Source: Thermoproteota archaeon (lineage in GTDB: Archaea; Thermoproteota; EX4484-205; JAAOZO01). From it: a DNA stretch of 49,482 nucleotides. The notes under the pieces are model-generated. The model did no database searches. It had not been told where the DNA came from and was given only the letters and a program-made list of their open reading frames with translations. This document shows, piece after piece, positions 9,642 to 38,791 of the stretch. Within the stretch, counting starts at the first letter, position 1. Every line of letters begins with the position of its first letter. Location: NCBI GenBank assembly GCA_041479945.1, contig JBGOYZ010000004.1:1-49482 (forward strand), given 5' to 3'. The position numbers were made by a program, and so were the translations under genes.

Positions 9642-11473
9642 CTACCCTTCTCGCTCGACCTCGCCCCAGTATCCCCAGTAAGGTTCAGTCTTTCTCTTTA
9701 TCGTTCCGACTTCCTCCAGCGCCTGCTGCAGATCCGGAGTGGCCAGGGAAGACAGAGTTGTCTTGATCTCATGAGCGTCAGACGAGGGGACATCAACGTA
9801 GAGGATCTGCCCTTCTCGAACGTTCCTGCCCACTGTGGCATCCGACACCGATATGGAGACCTCGTCGCCTGTCCTGGCCTCCTTCGACACCTCGTCCTTC
9901 AGCCGGATCGAATGGACATGCCCAACGGCTTCTCCCCCGGAGTTGAGCAACTTGGCCCCATCTCTCAGTATGCCCCTTTCCACTCGCACACCGAAGATCG
10001 CGGGTTTGCTCCTCCTGAACACGTAACCTGGTAGCACCAGCAACGTTGCGGGCGTCTGTATCTTGGCGAACCTCTCCGCATCTGTCGACTTCTCGTATTC
10101 TTCCTTCCAGTGCGTGTAGTCCTCCGTCAGACCGTAGATTATGTCCCCGGTGAATATCCTCACCCCTAGGTCCCTAGCTGATGACTCGACCTCCTGAGCT
10201 ACCTTTACGTTGAACGCCAACACCGCCCTGTTCGTAGCGCTTGAAGAGGCAGTGGAGGCCTCCACCACATCCTTCCTCGACACTGGTCCGATGTCGGCGG
10301 TCCTCACCTTGATGTTGACCTTCTGGAGCTCAAGGACCAGCGCCTCAAGGGAGCCCAAGGCGTCGGCTTTGACGATCAGGCCCTCGGTCTCCCTTCTGAA
10401 CATGAAGGTCGAGTACTCCTTGGACAGTTCATCGACAGCCTCCTTCTGCTCGGACTGGGAGTTGGCAACCATCAGGCTTGAGCCAGCGAGTGCCCCTTCG
10501 AGATCCGGTGCCCCCAACTTCACACCAGCCGAGGCGCGACAAATGCTGACCTGGGTGAACTTGTCCCTAGGATCGCGCATCTCATCCAGCGGCTTCGGGA
10601 CGAGAATCGCCCTCACCTTCGTGATGATCGGGCCAGAAGATCCGGACAGGACCACCGTGTCATTGACTGACAACTCGCCGTCGTACAGGATGACGTTGAG
10701 GGTGGGTCCCATCCCGACTTCTTTCTTGACCTCGAGAACTGTCCCCCTTCCTCTCTTGGACTTCACAGCCAGCGAATCGGACAGGTAGCTCTGGATCATC
10801 CCTGACATGACCGCTATCATCTCGGCCACGCCCTCGCCTGTCTTGGCGCTGAGCGGGATGACCGGTGCCTTTCCCTTGAACTCCCTGATGTTGTAGAACA
10901 AGTCCGCGTTGGACCCCAGCCTCGACAGCTCACCGACTATATCGTACAACTTGCCCTCCAATGTCCTGCGAACCTGCGGGTCCTGACTCTTCATTGACTT
11001 CAGGATGGACCGCGTCTTCTGTGGGACCCAGCCCTTCAGCAAGTCCACTTTGTTCGCGGCGATCACATATGGCGTGCTCCGCGTGTTGAGTATCTCAACT
11101 GATTCTATCGTCTGTGGCATCACTCCGGCAGTGACATCCACGACCAATATTGCGAAGTCGGCTATTGAGCCTCCCCTTTTCCTGAGGTTCATGAAAGCCT
11201 GGTGACCCGGCGTGTCTATGACCAGAAGGCCCGGTATCTTCAGCCTAGCGCCGACCTCTACTCCCTCGATACCCTTCACCACATCAAGGATCGTGTCTAG
11301 GGGTAGGTAGGAGGCACCCACGTGCTGGGTTATTCCTCCAGCTTCCCTCTTCGCGACCAGCGTCCCTCTGATCTTGTCTAGGAGGGAAGTCTTGCCGTGG
11401 TCCACTTAGCCCCCTCGCGGGTGTGGCCTAGAACCACGACTATCGGCTCCCTTAGGTACAGGGTTTGGCTCAC
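9642..11473 (-). CDS. infB: Translation initiation factor aIF5B/IF2, spliced: exon 1 11473-11423, exon 2 11405-9642 (604 aa predicted)
   Basis: Exon 1 reads MSQTLYLREPIVVVLGH and exon 2 VDHGKTSLLDKIRGT...EAGGITQHVGA...DTPGH...NKVD; removing 17 nt restores GHVDHGKT. Confidence 0.93.
11406..11422 (-). other. 17-nt BHB intron in aIF5B mRNA (ACCCGCGAGGGGGCUAA)
   Basis: Central helix GGCC/GGCU, bulges AC|A and AA|G, inner CCC-GCGA-GGG hairpin, outer helix UCUA/UGGA. Confidence 0.88.
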
Positions 11474-23043: not shown

Positions 23044-24058
23044 TCATCTCCACATCTTGGGATACAGGTTCCTGTCCATCACAACCCGTTCAACCGCAAC
23101 GGCCATCCCCGTCTTGTCTGTGGCAAGCGCTGAGCCGTCCTTGCTGGCTCTCCCCATTGCCGCGAGTTCTCCCTTGAGGGTCTTGATAGCCACGATCTCA
23201 TGTTGGGCAATAGGCTCCTCAAACGATGATATTCCCCCCACCGCTAGGCTCGCACCGTGACAGACCGCGGCCACTGCGCTGTCTTTGATGTAGATCGAAG
23301 GAAACGTTGAGACAGCGGTCTCCACCGGGAGGAAGATCTTCCTCAACAGGGAATCGTCCCCGTTCCTCCGGTACAGCTCCAAGGAGGCCGCGACATCCCA
23401 CATCGAGTGGGCGTCCTTTTCGAGGAACGGCCCGTCTAGGGTTCTTCTCAACTCTGCCATGTGTGCCCCTGTCCCTAAGAGAAGGCCGAGGTCATTGATG
23501 AGCTTCCTAGCGTAAGTCCCTGATTCGGTTCCGGCCTTGAACAAGACCCTTCTGTCCTTCATCTCTAGCAGATCGAAGTAGTAGATCTCTCTAGTTCTCA
23601 GTCGCCTGCTGACAGCGGATCTGACCGGCGGCCGCTGGTAAATCTCCCCGATGAGTTCCTTCATTGCCTTCCTCACGCGGGCTTCGCCCACCTTCGCGTG
23701 GAGTTCTCCGACTCCGACGTATTCCTTGTTGAAGGTGTGCGTGTACGACATGATGTTAGTAGCATTGCCTGTGAGCACGACGAGCACGCCGGTTACCTGG
23801 GGATTTCCCCGATCAGATCACTAGGGTCCCCGTGTGACCGGCCCTGTCGACTTTGATTAGCCTCTTGAAGTTGGCGACCACATCATGGCTGGTTGGGCCT
23901 TTCTGCTTGTCCAACACCACGGTCGCCAAGTTCATCAGAAGGTCGACTGGCCTGGAGCGCGGGTTATGTCCGTACTCCCAAGATGGCTCGGATTCCTCAC
24001 GAACTATCAGTTTCCTCGTCCTCTGGGGTATCCTCGTCTCTCTCAATCTCCTTTCCAC
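23044..24058 (-). CDS. cbf5: H/ACA pseudouridine synthase Cbf5, spliced: exon 1 24058-23821, exon 2 23804-23044 (332 aa predicted)
   Basis: LDK..GPTSH.V and GHTGTL in exon 1, then DPQVTGVL, KEYVG, YQRPP.RSAV, GTY.RKL and a PUA domain; removing 16 nt restores the catalytic Asp codon. Confidence 0.95.
23805..23820 (-). other. 16-nt BHB intron in cbf5 mRNA (UGAUCUGAUCGGGGAA)
   Basis: CCCU/GGGG central helix, AG|U and AA|A bulges, GAU/AUC inner stem, GGGGA/UCCCC outer helix; same GTLD motif as known crenarchaeal cbf5 introns. Confidence 0.93.
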
Positions 24059-24314
24059 CCATGAACGGGATCAGCCTAGATCTCTTGAGCGCGGTAACGA
24101 CCATCTTGTCAGGAGCATCCTTTCGTATCTTGACTGACTTCTCCAGAGGGGCTAGGTGCCCAATGTTCACCTTCCTCCTCCTGACACCGGTCACTTCCTT
24201 TGGGCCCGTGATCTCCACGTAGTTCTTGTCTATCAGGTTCACCACCACGCACTTACTGCCAGTCTCCCTACCCTTTGTCTTGAGGCATATCCTACCTATT
24301 GATAGCACTGCCAA
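23997..24314 (-). CDS. rpl14e: 50S ribosomal protein L14e
   Basis: IGRIC.K..GRE.G.KCVVV..ID.NYV..TGPK..TGV.RR..N..HL; TTG start. Confidence 0.93.
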   Translation of the reverse strand: MAVLSIGRICLKTKGRETGSKCVVVNLIDKNYVEITGPKEVTGVRRRKVNIGHLAPLEKSVKIRKDAPDKMVVTALKRSRLIPFMGGKEIERDEDTPEDEETDSS

Positions 24315-36354: not shown

Positions 36355-37374
36355 TCACTCAAGCAACACCATCTCGCTTGTGTCCGGACCAGTGCTGACA
36401 TATCTGACTGGAACTCCGACTTCCACCTCGACACGTCGCACGAATTCGAGACACTTGGGGGACAGACCATCCACCGTCTTGGCCGAGGAACACTCGGGGA
36501 AGAGGATGTCCAGCTTCGTGACCGCGATTGAGGTCGCTCCGTTCACCCTCGCGGCTCTCCTTGCCAGTTTGAAGTCGAAGGGCGCCGCCCTCCTCGTCCT
36601 ACCTGTGATGGTCCCTTTCTCCGACCAACCTCTCGCGGCAGTTTCTTGGGGGTCGAGTTCACCGGGCAAAAGCCCTTCTCCAACCCTCGTCATGTAGGAT
36701 TTGAGCACGAGGACCACGTCACTGACCATCTTCGGCCCAACTCCAACTTCGCTGAGCACTGCCGCTGCGGTCGTGTCTCTCCCGGTGACGAAGGGATATG
36801 TCCCATGGTAGAGGCTCAAGTAGAAACCCTGACTTCCTTCCAGATGAACTGTCTCCCCAGAGTCCAGAATCGAGTGGACTTCCTCAGACACGTCAGTCGT
36901 CAAGCCTTTCAGTTCGTCGAAATCCTTGGCGAGCCTCGCTCTCCGTCGGACTCTGTCAGCGATGGTCGGTCCCACACCTGAGCCGGTCGTGCCCACAACC
37001 CCTTTCAGGAACTCGTCCGATCTGTCCTCGTTGATGTGGTGCGCTTCTATCACAGAGGCCATCGAATCGACCTTCAGCCTCCCAGCCAAGCCGAGATAAT
37101 CCATCTCCGACCTCAAGATTGCCAAGTCTACGTTCGCTCCCGCCGCGATCCTCAGCTGGGTGGTTGGGTTGACGAATGCGCTGGGCGTCAGTCTCAGCTT
37201 GTAGGTCTTGCCATCATGGATCACGGTGTGTCCAGCGTTGACTGATCCGGTCCTTACGGACAATTCCGGGCGATCCTTCAAGGCAAGGTAGGCAGCCACC
37301 TTGCCCTCTTGGGGCGGTCAGTGCCGCTTTCCCTCATCGCCCCAGAATCCGGAGACTATTACTACGAGACTCAT
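36355..37374 (-). CDS. purA: Adenylosuccinate synthetase (short archaeal type), spliced: exon 1 37374-37329, exon 2 37307-36355 (332 aa predicted)
   Basis: MSLVVIVSGFWGDEG(K) joined to GKVAAYLA, then NAGHTV, GTTGSGVGP, EGSQG, YPFVT, TRVG.G and TGR.RR. Confidence 0.92.
37308..37328 (-). other. 21-nt relaxed BHB-like intron in purA mRNA (AGCGGCACUGACCGCCCCAAG) carrying an in-frame UGA
   Basis: Inner stem GCGG/CCGC, central helix GGG/CCC plus an A.A mismatch, bulges AA|A and AG|A; removal gives GDEGKGK. Confidence 0.8.
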
Positions 37375-37397: not shown

Positions 37398-37407
37398 CTT
37401 TTTAACG
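37398..37407. promoter_or_regulatory. Shared TATA-like element between divergent purA and purB
   Basis: TTTTTAA/TTAAAAA lies about 25 nt from both the purA ATG (37374) and the purB ATG (37430). Confidence 0.5.
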
Positions 37408-37429
37408 CATGCGCTTCTACGACCGAACA

Positions 37430-38791
37430 ATGAGCACTGGCTCGGAAGCCATCCATCCACTGGACTACCGGTACGGTGACGCCAAGGTGAAACACGTGTT
37501 CTCCCAGTCGGAGAAGTTCAGGCTGATCTTGGAGTTCGAGGGAAAGGTGGCCGAGGTCCAGTCTGAACTGGGGATCATACCAGTATGGGCGGGGCCCGTG
37601 ATATCCAAGGCTGCCAAAGCGGGAATTCCACTGGAGAGGGTCAGAGAAAAGGAGAAGGAAACGCAACACGAGGTGGCGGCAGTTGCTTCCTGCCTTGAGG
37701 AGGCGGCGGGCGAAGCGGGCAGGTTCGTTCACTTCGGCTTGACGTCCAATGACGTTCTTGATACGATCATGTTCATGCAAGGATCCGAGGCGGGCAAACG
37801 AATCCTAGAGCTGACAAAGGACCTAGTCAAAGGATTAGTGAAGAGGGCCGAAGAGAGCCGACACCTACTGTGTGTTGCCAGAACCCACGGCATGCACGCC
37901 GAGCCCTACACGTATGGACTCAGGTTCGCGGTGTGGTCATCGGAGATAGTCCGCTGCTACCTCAAGCTCTCAGATGCGCTCTCACAGGCCAAGGTCGGCA
38001 AAGTCAGTGGAGCTGTCGGAGACTATTCTGCACTGGGGGCGAGGGGCCCAGAATTGGAGAGTAGAGTCCTCGCCAGCTTTGGACTCAAAGCCCTGACTCC
38101 AACCACCCAAGTGATCCCAAGGGATGTCTTGACTTCGACGTTGCTTCAGTTGGCAACTCTGTCATCAGTGTTGGACAGAATTGCGACGAACCTGAGAAAC
38201 CTTCACAGGACAGAGGTAGGAGAAGTCAGAGAGGGTCGGACCGAAAGACAGGTTGGATCATCGGCGATGCCTCACAAGAGAAATCCGATCGGATGCGAGA
38301 AGGTCTCTGGTCTGGCTCGAGTGGTTAGGTCGTTGGCTTTGGCCTCCCTTGAAGATGTCGTGTTGTGGGATGAGAGAGACCTGACGAATAGCTCTGCTGA
38401 GAGAGTGATAATGCCTGAGATGTTCGGCCTAGTCTCCGAGCAGTTGACTACAATGACGGAGGTAGTGAGGAATCTCGTGTTGGATGAAGAAGCGATCGAG
38501 AGGAATCTGAATTCAACCAAAGGAGCGATATTCTCGGAGTTCATCTTGGGAGAGCTTGTTCTGTCCGGGATGGGCAGGGCCGAGGCGCATCGTCTCGTTA
38601 GCGGCATCGTCGAGGAAGTTGCGAGCTCCAAGAAGGACTTTCTGACGTTGCTCCGCGATGACCGAGTTGTATCGTCCAAGATCTCGGATGAGAAACTCAG
38701 AATCCTATTCGATCCGAAGAAAGCACTGCTACTTTCGGACGAACTGATAGACAAGGCCATCGCAGAGGCAGGGCAAATTCCCCACGACTAA
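37430..38791 (+). CDS. purB: Adenylosuccinate lyase
   Basis: HPLDYRYG, H.G.TSND, RTHG.HA.P, SSAMPHKRNP and ERDLTNSS.ER motifs. Confidence 0.95.
   Translation: MSTGSEAIHPLDYRYGDAKVKHVFSQSEKFRLILEFEGKVAEVQSELGIIPVWAGPVISKAAKAGIPLERVREKEKETQHEVAAVASCLEEAAGEAGRFVHFGLTSNDVLDTIMFMQGSEAGKRILELTKDLVKGLVKRAEESRHLLCVARTHGMHAEPYTYGLRFAVWSSEIVRCYLKLSDALSQAKVGKVSGAVGDYSALGARGPELESRVLASFGLKALTPTTQVIPRDVLTSTLLQLATLSSVLDRIATNLRNLHRTEVGEVREGRTERQVGSSAMPHKRNPIGCEKVSGLARVVRSLALASLEDVVLWDERDLTNSSAERVIMPEMFGLVSEQLTTMTEVVRNLVLDEEAIERNLNSTKGAIFSEFILGELVLSGMGRAEAHRLVSGIVEEVASSKKDFLTLLRDDRVVSSKISDEKLRILFDPKKALLLSDELIDKAIAEAGQIPHD

What the first reader, a model, noticed from the sequence alone, without database searches (positions are those of the whole stretch)
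37282..37328. 21-nt stop-containing intron in the PurA GDEGK|GK P-loop with a relaxed BHB and an adjacent exon hairpin
The minus strand reads GAUG-AGGG-AA|A-GCGG-CACUGA-CCGC-CCCA-AG|A-GGGCAAG. Removing 37308-37328 yields WGDEGKGK, the PurA signature, while retention places an in-frame UGA at 37318-37320. The central helix has only 3 bp plus an A.A mismatch, and there is no exon-exon outer helix. Exon 2 instead starts with a roughly 10-bp hairpin (GGCAAGGUGG/CUACCUUGCC, 37282-37305). Inference: this is a suboptimal substrate needing a broad-specificity EndA, so splicing efficiency could tune purine synthesis. The exact boundary could shift by up to 2 nt because of the repeated AG.
Basis: partly seen in the sequence, partly recalled or inferred. 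Interest (0 to 1): 0.85.

Follow-up and report, generated by a model that had tools for sequence, protein, structure and literature searches.

The report
Mini-intron splitting the archaeal purA gene
A 21-base insert with a stop codon in the nucleotide-binding loop of an archaeon's adenylosuccinate synthetase gene is most likely a tiny tRNA-type intron cut out of the messenger RNA, and the same intron occurs at the same spot in dozens of related archaea.

Summary
On the minus strand, purA reads GDEGK, then seven codons with an in-frame TGA, then GK. Removing 37328-37308 restores GDEGKGK.

It is not a lesion. Orthologues carry inserts of 15-30 nt at the same site: 12 of 26 genomes of the order and at least 44 of 401 sampled genomes of the phylum. 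Lengths fall evenly over the three frames. All 14 in-frame versions carry a stop.

All 46 loci fit one bulge-helix-bulge register. Compensatory changes support it.

purA is under purifying selection (dN/dS 0.087). The intron-bearing locus is the only PurA locus in five relatives tested.

The genome encodes a two-subunit EndA with the broad-specificity loop lysine, and RtcB.

No RNA data were found, so splicing is inferred. My literature searches found only cbf5 as a coding-sequence intron of this kind.

The exon-2 hairpin is real and non-random but specific to this genus. The idea that splicing tunes purine synthesis is untested.

The window also holds the cbf5 intron and a similar intron in aIF5B.

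The parts
37329..37374 (-). purA exon 1: ATG (37374-37372) to the first base of the Lys16 codon (37329). Encodes MSLVVIVSGFWGDEG plus the first base of K.
   Evidence: The N-terminus is identical over its first 10 residues to that of the intronless orthologue in G003.
37308..37328 (-). 21-nt intron (phase 1 in the Lys16 codon) with in-frame TGA at 37320-37318
   Evidence: Matched by covariance model R1 at 46.9 bits, E 4e-12.
36355..37307 (-). purA exon 2: the last two bases of the Lys16 codon, then GKVAAYL... to the stop codon at 36357-36355
   Evidence: Pfam Adenylsucc_synt 3.9e-62. dN/dS 0.087 against G001.
37331..37334 (-). central-helix strand in exon 1 (AGGG, from the Glu-Gly codons of the P-loop)
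37328..37330 (-). 5' bulge AAA. Predicted cleavage is between 37329 and 37328.
   Evidence: The bulge is AAA in 46 of 46 loci.
37314..37327 (-). intronic helix h' (GCGG 37327-24 with CCGC 37317-14) and 6-nt loop 37323-18
   Evidence: The one G000/G001 difference lies in the loop.
37310..37313 (-). central-helix strand in the intron (CCCA): 3 pairs plus an A.A mismatch
   Evidence: Relatives have CCCT or CCCC here (4 bp in 43 of 46 loci).
37307..37309 (-). 3' bulge AGA. Predicted cleavage is between 37308 and 37307.
   Evidence: AGA in 35 of 46 loci, AAA in 11.
37282..37305 (-). exon-2 hairpin, 10 bp with loop CUGC, starting 1-2 nt after the 3' splice site; seen only in this genus
37268..37342 (-). 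span of the 106-nt MFE structure: distal exon-exon pairing 37342-36 with 37274-68, enclosing the bulge-helix motif and the hairpin. The pairing is not beyond chance.
   Evidence: P = 0.13
37409..38791 (+). divergent purB (adenylosuccinate lyase), uninterrupted

Best explanation
The 21 nt at 37328-37308 are an archaeal bulge-helix-bulge intron of the relaxed kind, lodged in the P-loop codons of purA.

Proposed mechanism (inferred, not shown):
1. The pre-mRNA folds so that exon-1 AGGG pairs with the intron's 3' CCCA.
2. A 3-nt bulge and a 4-bp intronic hairpin follow on the 5' side. A 3-nt unpaired stretch carries the 3' splice site.
3. The two-subunit splicing endonuclease EndA cuts after the second base of each 3-nt stretch.
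4. RtcB joins the exons. This rebuilds the Lys16 codon and the GDEGKGK loop.
5. Unspliced mRNA ends at UGA after 18 codons, so only spliced mRNA gives PurA.

The exonic half of the recognition structure is written in the invariant Glu-Gly-Lys codons. That may explain why the intron has stayed at this one site in several lineages of the phylum.
For: Same-site inserts in orthologues:
- 14 of 30 loci from 41 related genomes.
- 8 of 80 named loci, including Methanomethylicaceae and Nezhaarchaeota MAGs.
- 12 of 26 genomes of the order.
- 43 purA-type hits in 401 sampled genomes of the phylum, plus G004, which the stricter pattern missed.

Insert properties:
- Lengths are 15-30 nt, with length mod 3 of 0, 1, 2 in 15, 16 and 15 loci. 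Two thirds would frameshift.
- All 14 of 14 distinct in-frame versions carry a stop.

Structure:
- All 46 loci fit one register. The central helix has 4 bp in 43 and 3 bp in 3.
- Bulge 1 is AAA in 46 of 46. The inner helix has 2-9 closing pairs built from unrelated sequences.
- 277 of 280 cells pair in register, against 37-69% when the partner is slid.
- On the model-based alignment, the covariation score is 0.360 against 0.161 shuffled (0 of 500 as high). 5 of 7 pairs change on both sides, and slid controls score 0.058-0.122.
- Model R1 hit 45 of 45 intron loci. It hit none of 6 intronless controls, nor L150.
- Local MFE equals the motif in 7 of 13 sequences and is close to it in the rest.

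Selection:
- dN/dS is 0.087 with dS 0.65 against G001.
- The intron differs at 1 of 21 positions, against 98 of 314 third codon positions. By my own binomial arithmetic this gives P of about 0.004.
- The intron-bearing locus is the only PF00709 locus in G002, G004, G005, G006 and the single-contig G032.

Machinery:
- Two EndA genes.
- The alpha subunit is nearest to crenarchaeal catalytic subunits 3p1z_B, 3ajv_B, 2cv8_A and 2zyz_B. Its K40 aligns to A. pernix K44.
- The beta subunit lacks the catalytic His.
- RtcB is present.
- 12 of 26 tRNAs found by aragorn carry introns.

Distribution:
- The pattern on a PurA tree needs at least 5 changes among 100 rows, against 16.1 when shuffled.
Against: - No RNA evidence. 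No listed run holds the stretch, and nothing was laid.
- The window's own motif is among the weakest of the 46 loci: 3 central pairs, shared only with G001 and L146.
- There is no abutting exonic helix.
- The 81-nt MFE prefers a competing pairing.
- This genome has a second, uninterrupted purA paralogue (338 aa, 41% identical). This copy could therefore be dispensable here.
- The genome is a 111-contig assembly at 91% completeness.
- The register was chosen as the best among those that restore GDEGKGK. This favours it slightly.
- The alignment is fitted to the model.
Confidence: 0.87

Rival explanations
1. Pseudogene: purA on this contig was inactivated by a 21-bp insertion with a stop, and the uninterrupted paralogue on C18 does the work.
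For: A second purA with an intact GDEGKGK exists in G000. Its contig has the genome's usual G+C content (0.548 against a mean of 0.549). The window's central helix is imperfect.
Against: dN/dS is 0.087 over 314 codons against G001. The insert is conserved at 20 of 21 positions at a divergence of dS 0.65. The same site is occupied in at least 44 of 401 genomes, in structured form. In five relatives the interrupted locus is the only PurA locus. No second paralogue was seen in the other genomes with this query.
Confidence: 0.04
2. Translational recoding: the ribosome reads through the UGA (for example as selenocysteine), shifts frame, or hops over the insert as in T4 gene 60.
For: There is an in-frame UGA and a strong hairpin just downstream. 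Hairpins accompany some recoding sites (recalled).
Against: Read-through would put 7 extra residues into the P-loop. Orthologous inserts have lengths of all three frame classes, and they carry TAG as well as TGA. One decoding trick therefore cannot serve them all. A hop needs matched take-off and landing codons that restore GKGK; I read the sequences for such pairs and found none. The conserved bulge-helix geometry has no role in these mechanisms.
Confidence: 0.03
3. A true intron whose splicing is rate-limiting and regulated, so that PurA output (AMP synthesis) follows the activity of EndA or of GTP-dependent RtcB. It adds to the best explanation rather than replacing it.
For: The motif is suboptimal in this genus. 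There is a non-random hairpin next to the 3' site (P about 0.0003-0.0005). Every in-frame intron carries a stop (14 of 14). The intron has persisted across distant lineages. That RtcB uses GTP is recalled from the literature.
Against: There are no expression data. Most relatives have a perfect central helix and no hairpin. Several clades lost the intron. Persistence may only reflect the difficulty of exact deletion.
Confidence: 0.12
4. Assembly or sequencing artefact.
For: The source is a metagenome-type assembly of 111 contigs.
Against: The same insert, with one loop substitution, is in an independent genome of the genus (G001). Structured inserts at the same site are in dozens of independent assemblies, including single-contig genomes G032 and G039.
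Confidence: 0.01

Closest known systems
cbf5 pre-mRNA intron of Crenarchaeota (Watanabe 2002, Yoshinari 2006: seen only as citations; Yokobori 2009, PMC2738675: abstract, passages and reference list read)
   Same: A short intron inside a protein-coding gene. It has a relaxed bulge-helix-bulge motif and interrupts the codon of an essential residue, so it must be removed. Its presence and loss at one fixed site follow lineages. It is linked to the hetero-oligomeric EndA (passages). The window itself carries this cbf5 intron at the published site.
   Different: A different gene (purA), a different site (P-loop Lys codon), and lineages named Nitrososphaerota/Brockarchaeota, Methanomethylicaceae and Nezhaarchaeota by submitters. 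Splicing is not shown by RNA. There are two registers one base apart.
Non-canonical tRNA introns (relaxed HBh'/hBH and bulge-helix-loop forms) cut by (alpha-beta)2 or epsilon2 EndA (PMC5829648 and PMC3241643, passages read)
   Same: The geometry matches: 3-nt bulges, a 4-bp central helix, an intronic helix h', and a missing or disrupted exonic helix. It depends on an EndA with the specific-loop lysine. Size is 15-30 nt; tRNA introns are 11-175 nt according to a passage.
   Different: The host is an mRNA without a tRNA body. The exonic strand is fixed by protein-coding constraint.
BHB intron in the 5' UTR of Haloferax volcanii HVO_1309 (PMC7714728, passages read)
   Same: EndA acts on an mRNA. 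That paper states that besides it only cbf5 was known.
   Different: That one lies in a UTR, not in the coding sequence, and in a euryarchaeon with a different EndA type.
IRE1/RtcB splicing of HAC1 and XBP1 mRNA in eukaryotes (recalled; mentioned in PMC13149111)
   Same: A very small intron is removed from an mRNA by a protein endonuclease and a tRNA-type ligase. This changes what the mRNA encodes.
   Different: A different endonuclease and RNA motif. That case is an established stress-regulated switch; no regulation is shown here.
Translational bypass elements (T4 gene 60, mitochondrial byps; recalled)
   Same: Short untranslated inserts inside coding sequence, often with a stop and a hairpin.
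   Different: They need matched take-off and landing codons, which are not present here. They have no bulge-helix-bulge geometry.

Membership tests
Archaeal bulge-helix-bulge intron (canonical hBHBh') | Two 3-nt bulges on opposite strands, each 3' of its strand of the central helix, with cleavage after the second bulge base giving a correct product | tested here: met
   The AAA and AGA stretches lie in the required places. Cutting at 37329/28 and 37308/07 restores GDEGKGK. The geometry is the same in 46 of 46 orthologous introns.
Archaeal bulge-helix-bulge intron (canonical hBHBh') | Central helix of 4 base pairs | tested here: inconclusive
   The window has 3 standard pairs plus A.A. The helix has 4 bp in 43 of 46 orthologous introns. 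The outer pair covaries: A-U in 17 and G-C in 21 of 41 distinct rows.
Archaeal bulge-helix-bulge intron (canonical hBHBh') | Intronic helix h' of at least 2 Watson-Crick pairs closing the bulge | tested here: met
   GCGG/CCGC, 4 bp. The range is 2-9 closing pairs in 46 loci, and all 3 scored pairs change on both sides.
Archaeal bulge-helix-bulge intron (canonical hBHBh') | Exonic helix h abutting the central helix and closing the other bulge | tested here: not met
   No pairing exists between the bases 5' of AGGG and those 3' of AGA. The motif is therefore of the relaxed HBh' kind. A local exon-2 hairpin starts 1-2 nt after the bulge. The distal exon-exon pairing is not beyond chance.
Archaeal bulge-helix-bulge intron (any form) | Excision by EndA and ligation by RtcB shown on RNA | not testable with these tools
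   No RNA run holds the stretch, and 0 reads were laid.
Archaeal bulge-helix-bulge intron (relaxed form) | The host encodes an EndA of a broad-specificity type, with the specific-loop lysine, and an RtcB ligase | tested here: met
   An alpha subunit (184 aa, with Tyr/His/Lys) and a beta subunit (no His) are present. Alpha K40 aligns with A. pernix K44. RtcB scores 564 bits.
Protein-coding (cbf5-type) archaeal intron | Lies inside an ORF, breaks an essential motif, cannot be translated through, and sits at a fixed site with lineage-specific presence and loss | tested here: met
Programmed translational bypass | Matched take-off and landing codons flanking the gap that restore the conserved protein | tested here: not met
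   From my reading, no Lys or Gly codon pair gives GKGK after a hop, either in the window or in G002.
Selenocysteine or stop read-through | A conserved in-frame stop at a position tolerated by the protein | tested here: not met
   The inserts differ in length, frame and stop type (TGA, TAG), and they sit inside the P-loop.

The most novel reading that the evidence does not exclude
The purA intron is one of a set of ancient micro-introns parked in the catalytic-motif codons of core genes. This 49-kb window alone holds three: the purA P-loop, the aIF5B G1 motif and the Cbf5 catalytic Asp.

On this reading the lineage makes production of core enzymes depend on the tRNA-splicing machinery (EndA plus GTP-dependent RtcB). 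Unspliced mRNAs are kept untranslatable: every in-frame purA intron carries a stop. Splicing would then be a regulated checkpoint that ties AMP synthesis and translation initiation to RNA-processing or GTP status. Many more such introns would await discovery genome-wide.
Probability: 0.15. Interest if true: 0.9.

Novelty: new member of a known kind. Interest (0 to 1): 0.74.

Why it matters
- Passages read here state that cbf5 was the only coding-sequence example of an archaeal splicing-endonuclease intron (PMC7714728). The 2025 paper PMC12397907 cites only the cbf5 papers.
- My nine full-text searches found no report of an intron in purA or aIF5B. That library omits most subscription journals.
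- A second gene with such an intron gives comparative material on how mRNA introns arise, slide, persist and are lost without a spliceosome. Here it is conserved at one site in at least 44 of 401 sampled genomes, in six family-level groups, and in two registers one base apart.
- There is a practical consequence. Public gene calls for close relatives start after the intron and lack the P-loop: six of six proteins at 74-99% identity are 314 aa long. Metabolic reconstructions may therefore score purA as truncated or broken.

Tried and rejected
Tools that gave nothing:
- RNA evidence: no RNA holder was listed. Laying the three same-study Nanopore metatranscriptome runs gave 0 records.
- Rfam at gathering thresholds: 0 matches in the window.
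- The sigma-70 promoter and terminator scan gave nothing relevant.
- No tRNA in the window.

Looking for spliced-form proteins in the 5.8-billion-protein collection:
- The six closest relatives all start after the intron.
- P0010 (68% identical, 331 aa, intact P-loop, on a 1,297-nt contig) may be an intronless relative or a transcript. I could not tell, because the contig look-up tool is marked closed and I did not call it.

Genome-wide motif scans for further mRNA introns were not specific and were dropped:
- 24,690 candidates for the true geometry, against 23,154-24,175 for decoy geometries.
- Among 728 same-strand ORF junctions, 396 had a candidate, against 390-424 for decoys.

Pfam checks of 30 further open frames of the window showed one more split gene (aIF5B) and no others.

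Other negative results:
- The distal exon-exon helix is not beyond synonymous-codon chance (P = 0.13).
- The comparison of exon-2 folding between intron-bearing and intronless loci is confounded by G+C content and kinship. One bad energy value also spoiled the intronless mean. Close intronless relatives fold about as well as intron-bearing ones (-5.6 to -8.5 against about -6 to -8 kcal/mol). Only the G000/G001 hairpin stands out.
- The origin of the C18 paralogue stays open. It is 43-46% identical to diverse archaeal PurAs.
- G395's pattern hit did not fit the purA site and was not hit by the model. I left it unexplained.
- Supplementary files of papers were not consulted. The tables of Yokobori 2009 and the EndA papers might list further predicted mRNA introns.

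Full report
**What is in the sequence.** On the minus strand an open frame starts at ATG 37374-37372. It reads MSLVVIVSGFWGDEGK, then RH*PPQE, then GKVAAYLALKDRP and so on to a stop at 36357-36355. The part after the interruption is a clear adenylosuccinate synthetase (Pfam PF00709, 3.9e-62). The divergent neighbour is an intact adenylosuccinate lyase. Removing 37328-37308 restores the PurA P-loop GDEGKGK. The in-frame TGA is at 37320-37318. Registers shifted by up to 2 nt give the same product.

**It is not a private lesion.** I searched 41 related genomes with the exon-2 protein and read the 5' ends of 30 loci.
- 14 of the 30 carry an insert exactly between GDEGK and GK. Lengths are 21, 17, 15, 20 and 28 nt, and many break the frame.
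- Among 80 named loci from species-representative genomes, 8 carry it. These include MAGs that submitters named Methanomethylicaceae (22 and 30 nt) and Nezhaarchaeota (16 nt).
- A pattern scan found the purA insert in 12 of the 26 genomes of the window's order.
- A stricter pattern found it in 43 of 401 evenly drawn genomes of the phylum. G004, which that pattern missed, brings this to at least 44 of 401.
- The carriers fall in family codes f1, f2, f4, f11 (22 of 32), f36 and f46.
- One further hit (G395) did not fit and is unexplained.

**One structure fits all.** I fetched the new sites. For each of 46 loci (40 distinct sequences) I asked which register both restores GDEGKGK and pairs best.
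- Every locus has four exon bases (AGGG or GGGG, from the Glu-Gly codons) facing four bases at the intron's 3' end (CCCT, CCCC or CCCA).
- Next comes a 3-nt AAA stretch holding the 5' cut, then an intronic hairpin abutting it, then a 3-nt AGA (35 loci) or AAA (11 loci) stretch holding the 3' cut.
- The central helix has 4 standard pairs in 43 loci and 3 in three (G000, G001, L146).
- The hairpin stems use unrelated sequences with 2-9 closing pairs.
- In register, 277 of 280 cells pair. With the 3' partner slid by 1-3 columns, 37-69% pair.
- A covariance model built from 16 sequences found 45 of 45 intron loci. It found none of six intronless controls, nor L150.
- On its alignment the covariation score is 0.360 against 0.161 for shuffles (0 of 500 as high). 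5 of 7 pairs change on both sides. Slid controls score 0.058-0.122.
- That alignment is fitted to the model, and the register was chosen among the few that restore the protein. Both favour the structure somewhat.
- Local folding gives the motif as MFE in 7 of 13 sequences and nearly so in the rest. For the window an 81-nt fold prefers a competing pairing, while the 36-nt and 106-nt folds give the motif.

**It cannot be translated through.** Lengths run from 15 to 30 nt, and length mod 3 is 0, 1, 2 in 15, 16 and 15 loci. All 14 of 14 distinct in-frame introns carry a stop in the exon-1 frame. 32 of the 40 distinct introns have a stop in that frame inside the intron. The in-frame introns come from perhaps six or seven independent lineages, so this is suggestive rather than a strong statistic.

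There are two registers, and the whole motif is slid by one base between them:
- with AGGG, the cut falls after the first base of the Lys codon (window's order and f36; 19 distinct sequences);
- with GGGG, it falls after the second base (f11 and f46; 21 distinct sequences).

**The gene is alive.**
- Against the same-genus genome G001, exon 2 differs at 142 of 942 bases and 34 of 314 residues. dN is 0.057 and dS is 0.65, so dN/dS is 0.087.
- The intron differs at one loop position in 21.
- In G002, G004, G005, G006 and the single-contig G032, all PF00709 matches lie at the interrupted locus.
- G000 is unusual in having a second, uninterrupted paralogue on contig C18. It is 338 aa long, 41% identical to this copy, and 43-46% identical to diverse archaeal PurAs.

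**The machinery is present.**
- G000 has two EndA-domain genes.
- One is a 184-aa protein with the Tyr, His and Lys of the active site. It is nearest to the catalytic subunits of crenarchaeal two-subunit enzymes (3p1z_B at 5e-43, then 3ajv_B, 2cv8_A, 2zyz_B).
- Its K40 and K42 align without gaps to K44 and R46 of the A. pernix enzyme. K44 lies in the loop shown to confer broad substrate specificity (PMC3241643, abstract and passages).
- The second protein aligns to M. jannaschii EndA with Ala in place of the catalytic His.
- RtcB is present.
- Aragorn finds only 26 tRNAs in this 91%-complete genome, 12 of them with introns. Some of these calls may be spurious.

**Which form it is.** The intronic helix, the central helix and the 5' bulge are intact. 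No exonic helix abuts the motif. In the nomenclature quoted this is the relaxed HBh' kind.

In G000 and G001 the central helix also has an A.A mismatch. In these same two genomes a 10-bp hairpin starts one to two bases after the 3' cut. That hairpin is far stronger than synonymous codon choice would give: -16.7 against -6.5 +/- 2.2 kcal/mol, with 1 of 3000 resamplings as low (one search is similar). It is absent from the other intron-bearing lineages.

One possible reading is that the hairpin stacks on the shortened central helix and stands in for the missing exonic helix. That is my inference and nothing tests it. A distal 7-bp exon-exon pairing in the 106-nt MFE is not beyond chance (P = 0.13).

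**History.** On a quick maximum-likelihood tree of 100 distinct PurA rows (17 with the intron), the trait needs at least 5 changes. Shuffled labels need 16.1 on average, and none of 500 shuffles was as low. Within the window's order, intron-bearing and intronless rows form sister groups, which fits inheritance with losses. Whether the far-apart groups share one ancient gain cannot be decided without a rooted species tree.

**Rivals.**
- A pseudogene is contradicted by the selection data and by the distribution.
- Read-through, frameshifting or hopping cannot serve inserts of all three frame classes with different stops. I also found no take-off and landing codon pair that restores GKGK (my reading).
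- An artefact is excluded by the many independent assemblies.

**Literature.** Nine full-text searches found no paper on an intron in purA or aIF5B. A 2020 paper states that cbf5 is the only reported additional BHB intron (PMC7714728, passage). A 2025 paper cites only the cbf5 work (PMC12397907, reference passage). The library lacks most subscription journals, and I saw no supplements.

**What remains inferred.** No RNA read, cleavage assay or peptide supports splicing. The case rests on comparative sequence, structure and the presence of the enzymes.

Noticed in passing
window 23805-23820 (minus strand); cbf5 open frames 24058-23813 and 23787-23044: cbf5 is split by a 16-nt insert between the first and second base of the catalytic Asp codon (GTL, D, P). 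It shows the same geometry: CCCT facing GGGG, bulges AGT and AAA, and a 3-bp hairpin. This is the site published for the crenarchaeal cbf5 intron (PMC2738675 passage). Here it sits in a lineage whose relatives are named Nitrososphaerota or Brockarchaeota.
   Followed up: partly
window 11406-11422 (minus strand); aIF5B open frame 11405-9645: aIF5B (IF-2 family GTPase) lacks its G1 motif in the main frame; the Pfam match starts at profile position 12. A 17-nt insert sits between GH and VDHGKT. It has bulge-helix geometry: GGCC facing GGCT, bulges ACA and AAG, and hairpin CCC-GCGA-GGG. Inserts of 17-37 nt at the same site occur in 8 of 26 genomes of the order (f1 all six including G000, f3 two of two). 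I found no report of it.
   Followed up: partly
G000 contig C18:11159-12175 (L002 1489-2505): A second, uninterrupted purA paralogue (338 aa, intact GDEGKGK). It is 41% identical to the window copy and 43-46% identical to diverse archaeal PurAs. It was not seen in the other genomes searched with the window's protein. Its origin is unknown.
   Followed up: partly
40 distinct purA introns from 46 loci (L007-L149): All 14 in-frame introns carry a stop in the exon frame. The whole motif exists in two registers one base apart (phase 1 with AGGG, phase 2 with GGGG), which could reflect intron sliding or separate gains.
   Followed up: partly
proteins P0001-P0006, P0007, P0015: Public gene calls of close relatives start just after the intron (314 aa, no P-loop), or start inside it in another frame. 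They are still named adenylosuccinate synthase. This is a systematic mis-annotation caused by the intron.
   Followed up: yes
G000 whole genome: Aragorn finds only 26 tRNA genes in a 91%-complete genome, 12 of them with introns. Many tRNAs may carry non-canonical introns or be split and so escape detection.
   Followed up: no
G395:C6:608167-608204 (L150): An 18-nt spacer lies between a DEGK-like and a GK-like codon run in a family-f15 genome. It matched the pattern but neither the purA P-loop context nor the covariance model. It is probably chance.
   Followed up: partly
window 37398-37405 (minus strand): An A/T-rich TTAAAAAG box lies about 28 nt upstream of the purA ATG and overlaps the first codons of the divergent purB. 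By my reading, this suggests a leaderless purA mRNA in which the intron begins about 46 nt from the 5' end.
   Followed up: no
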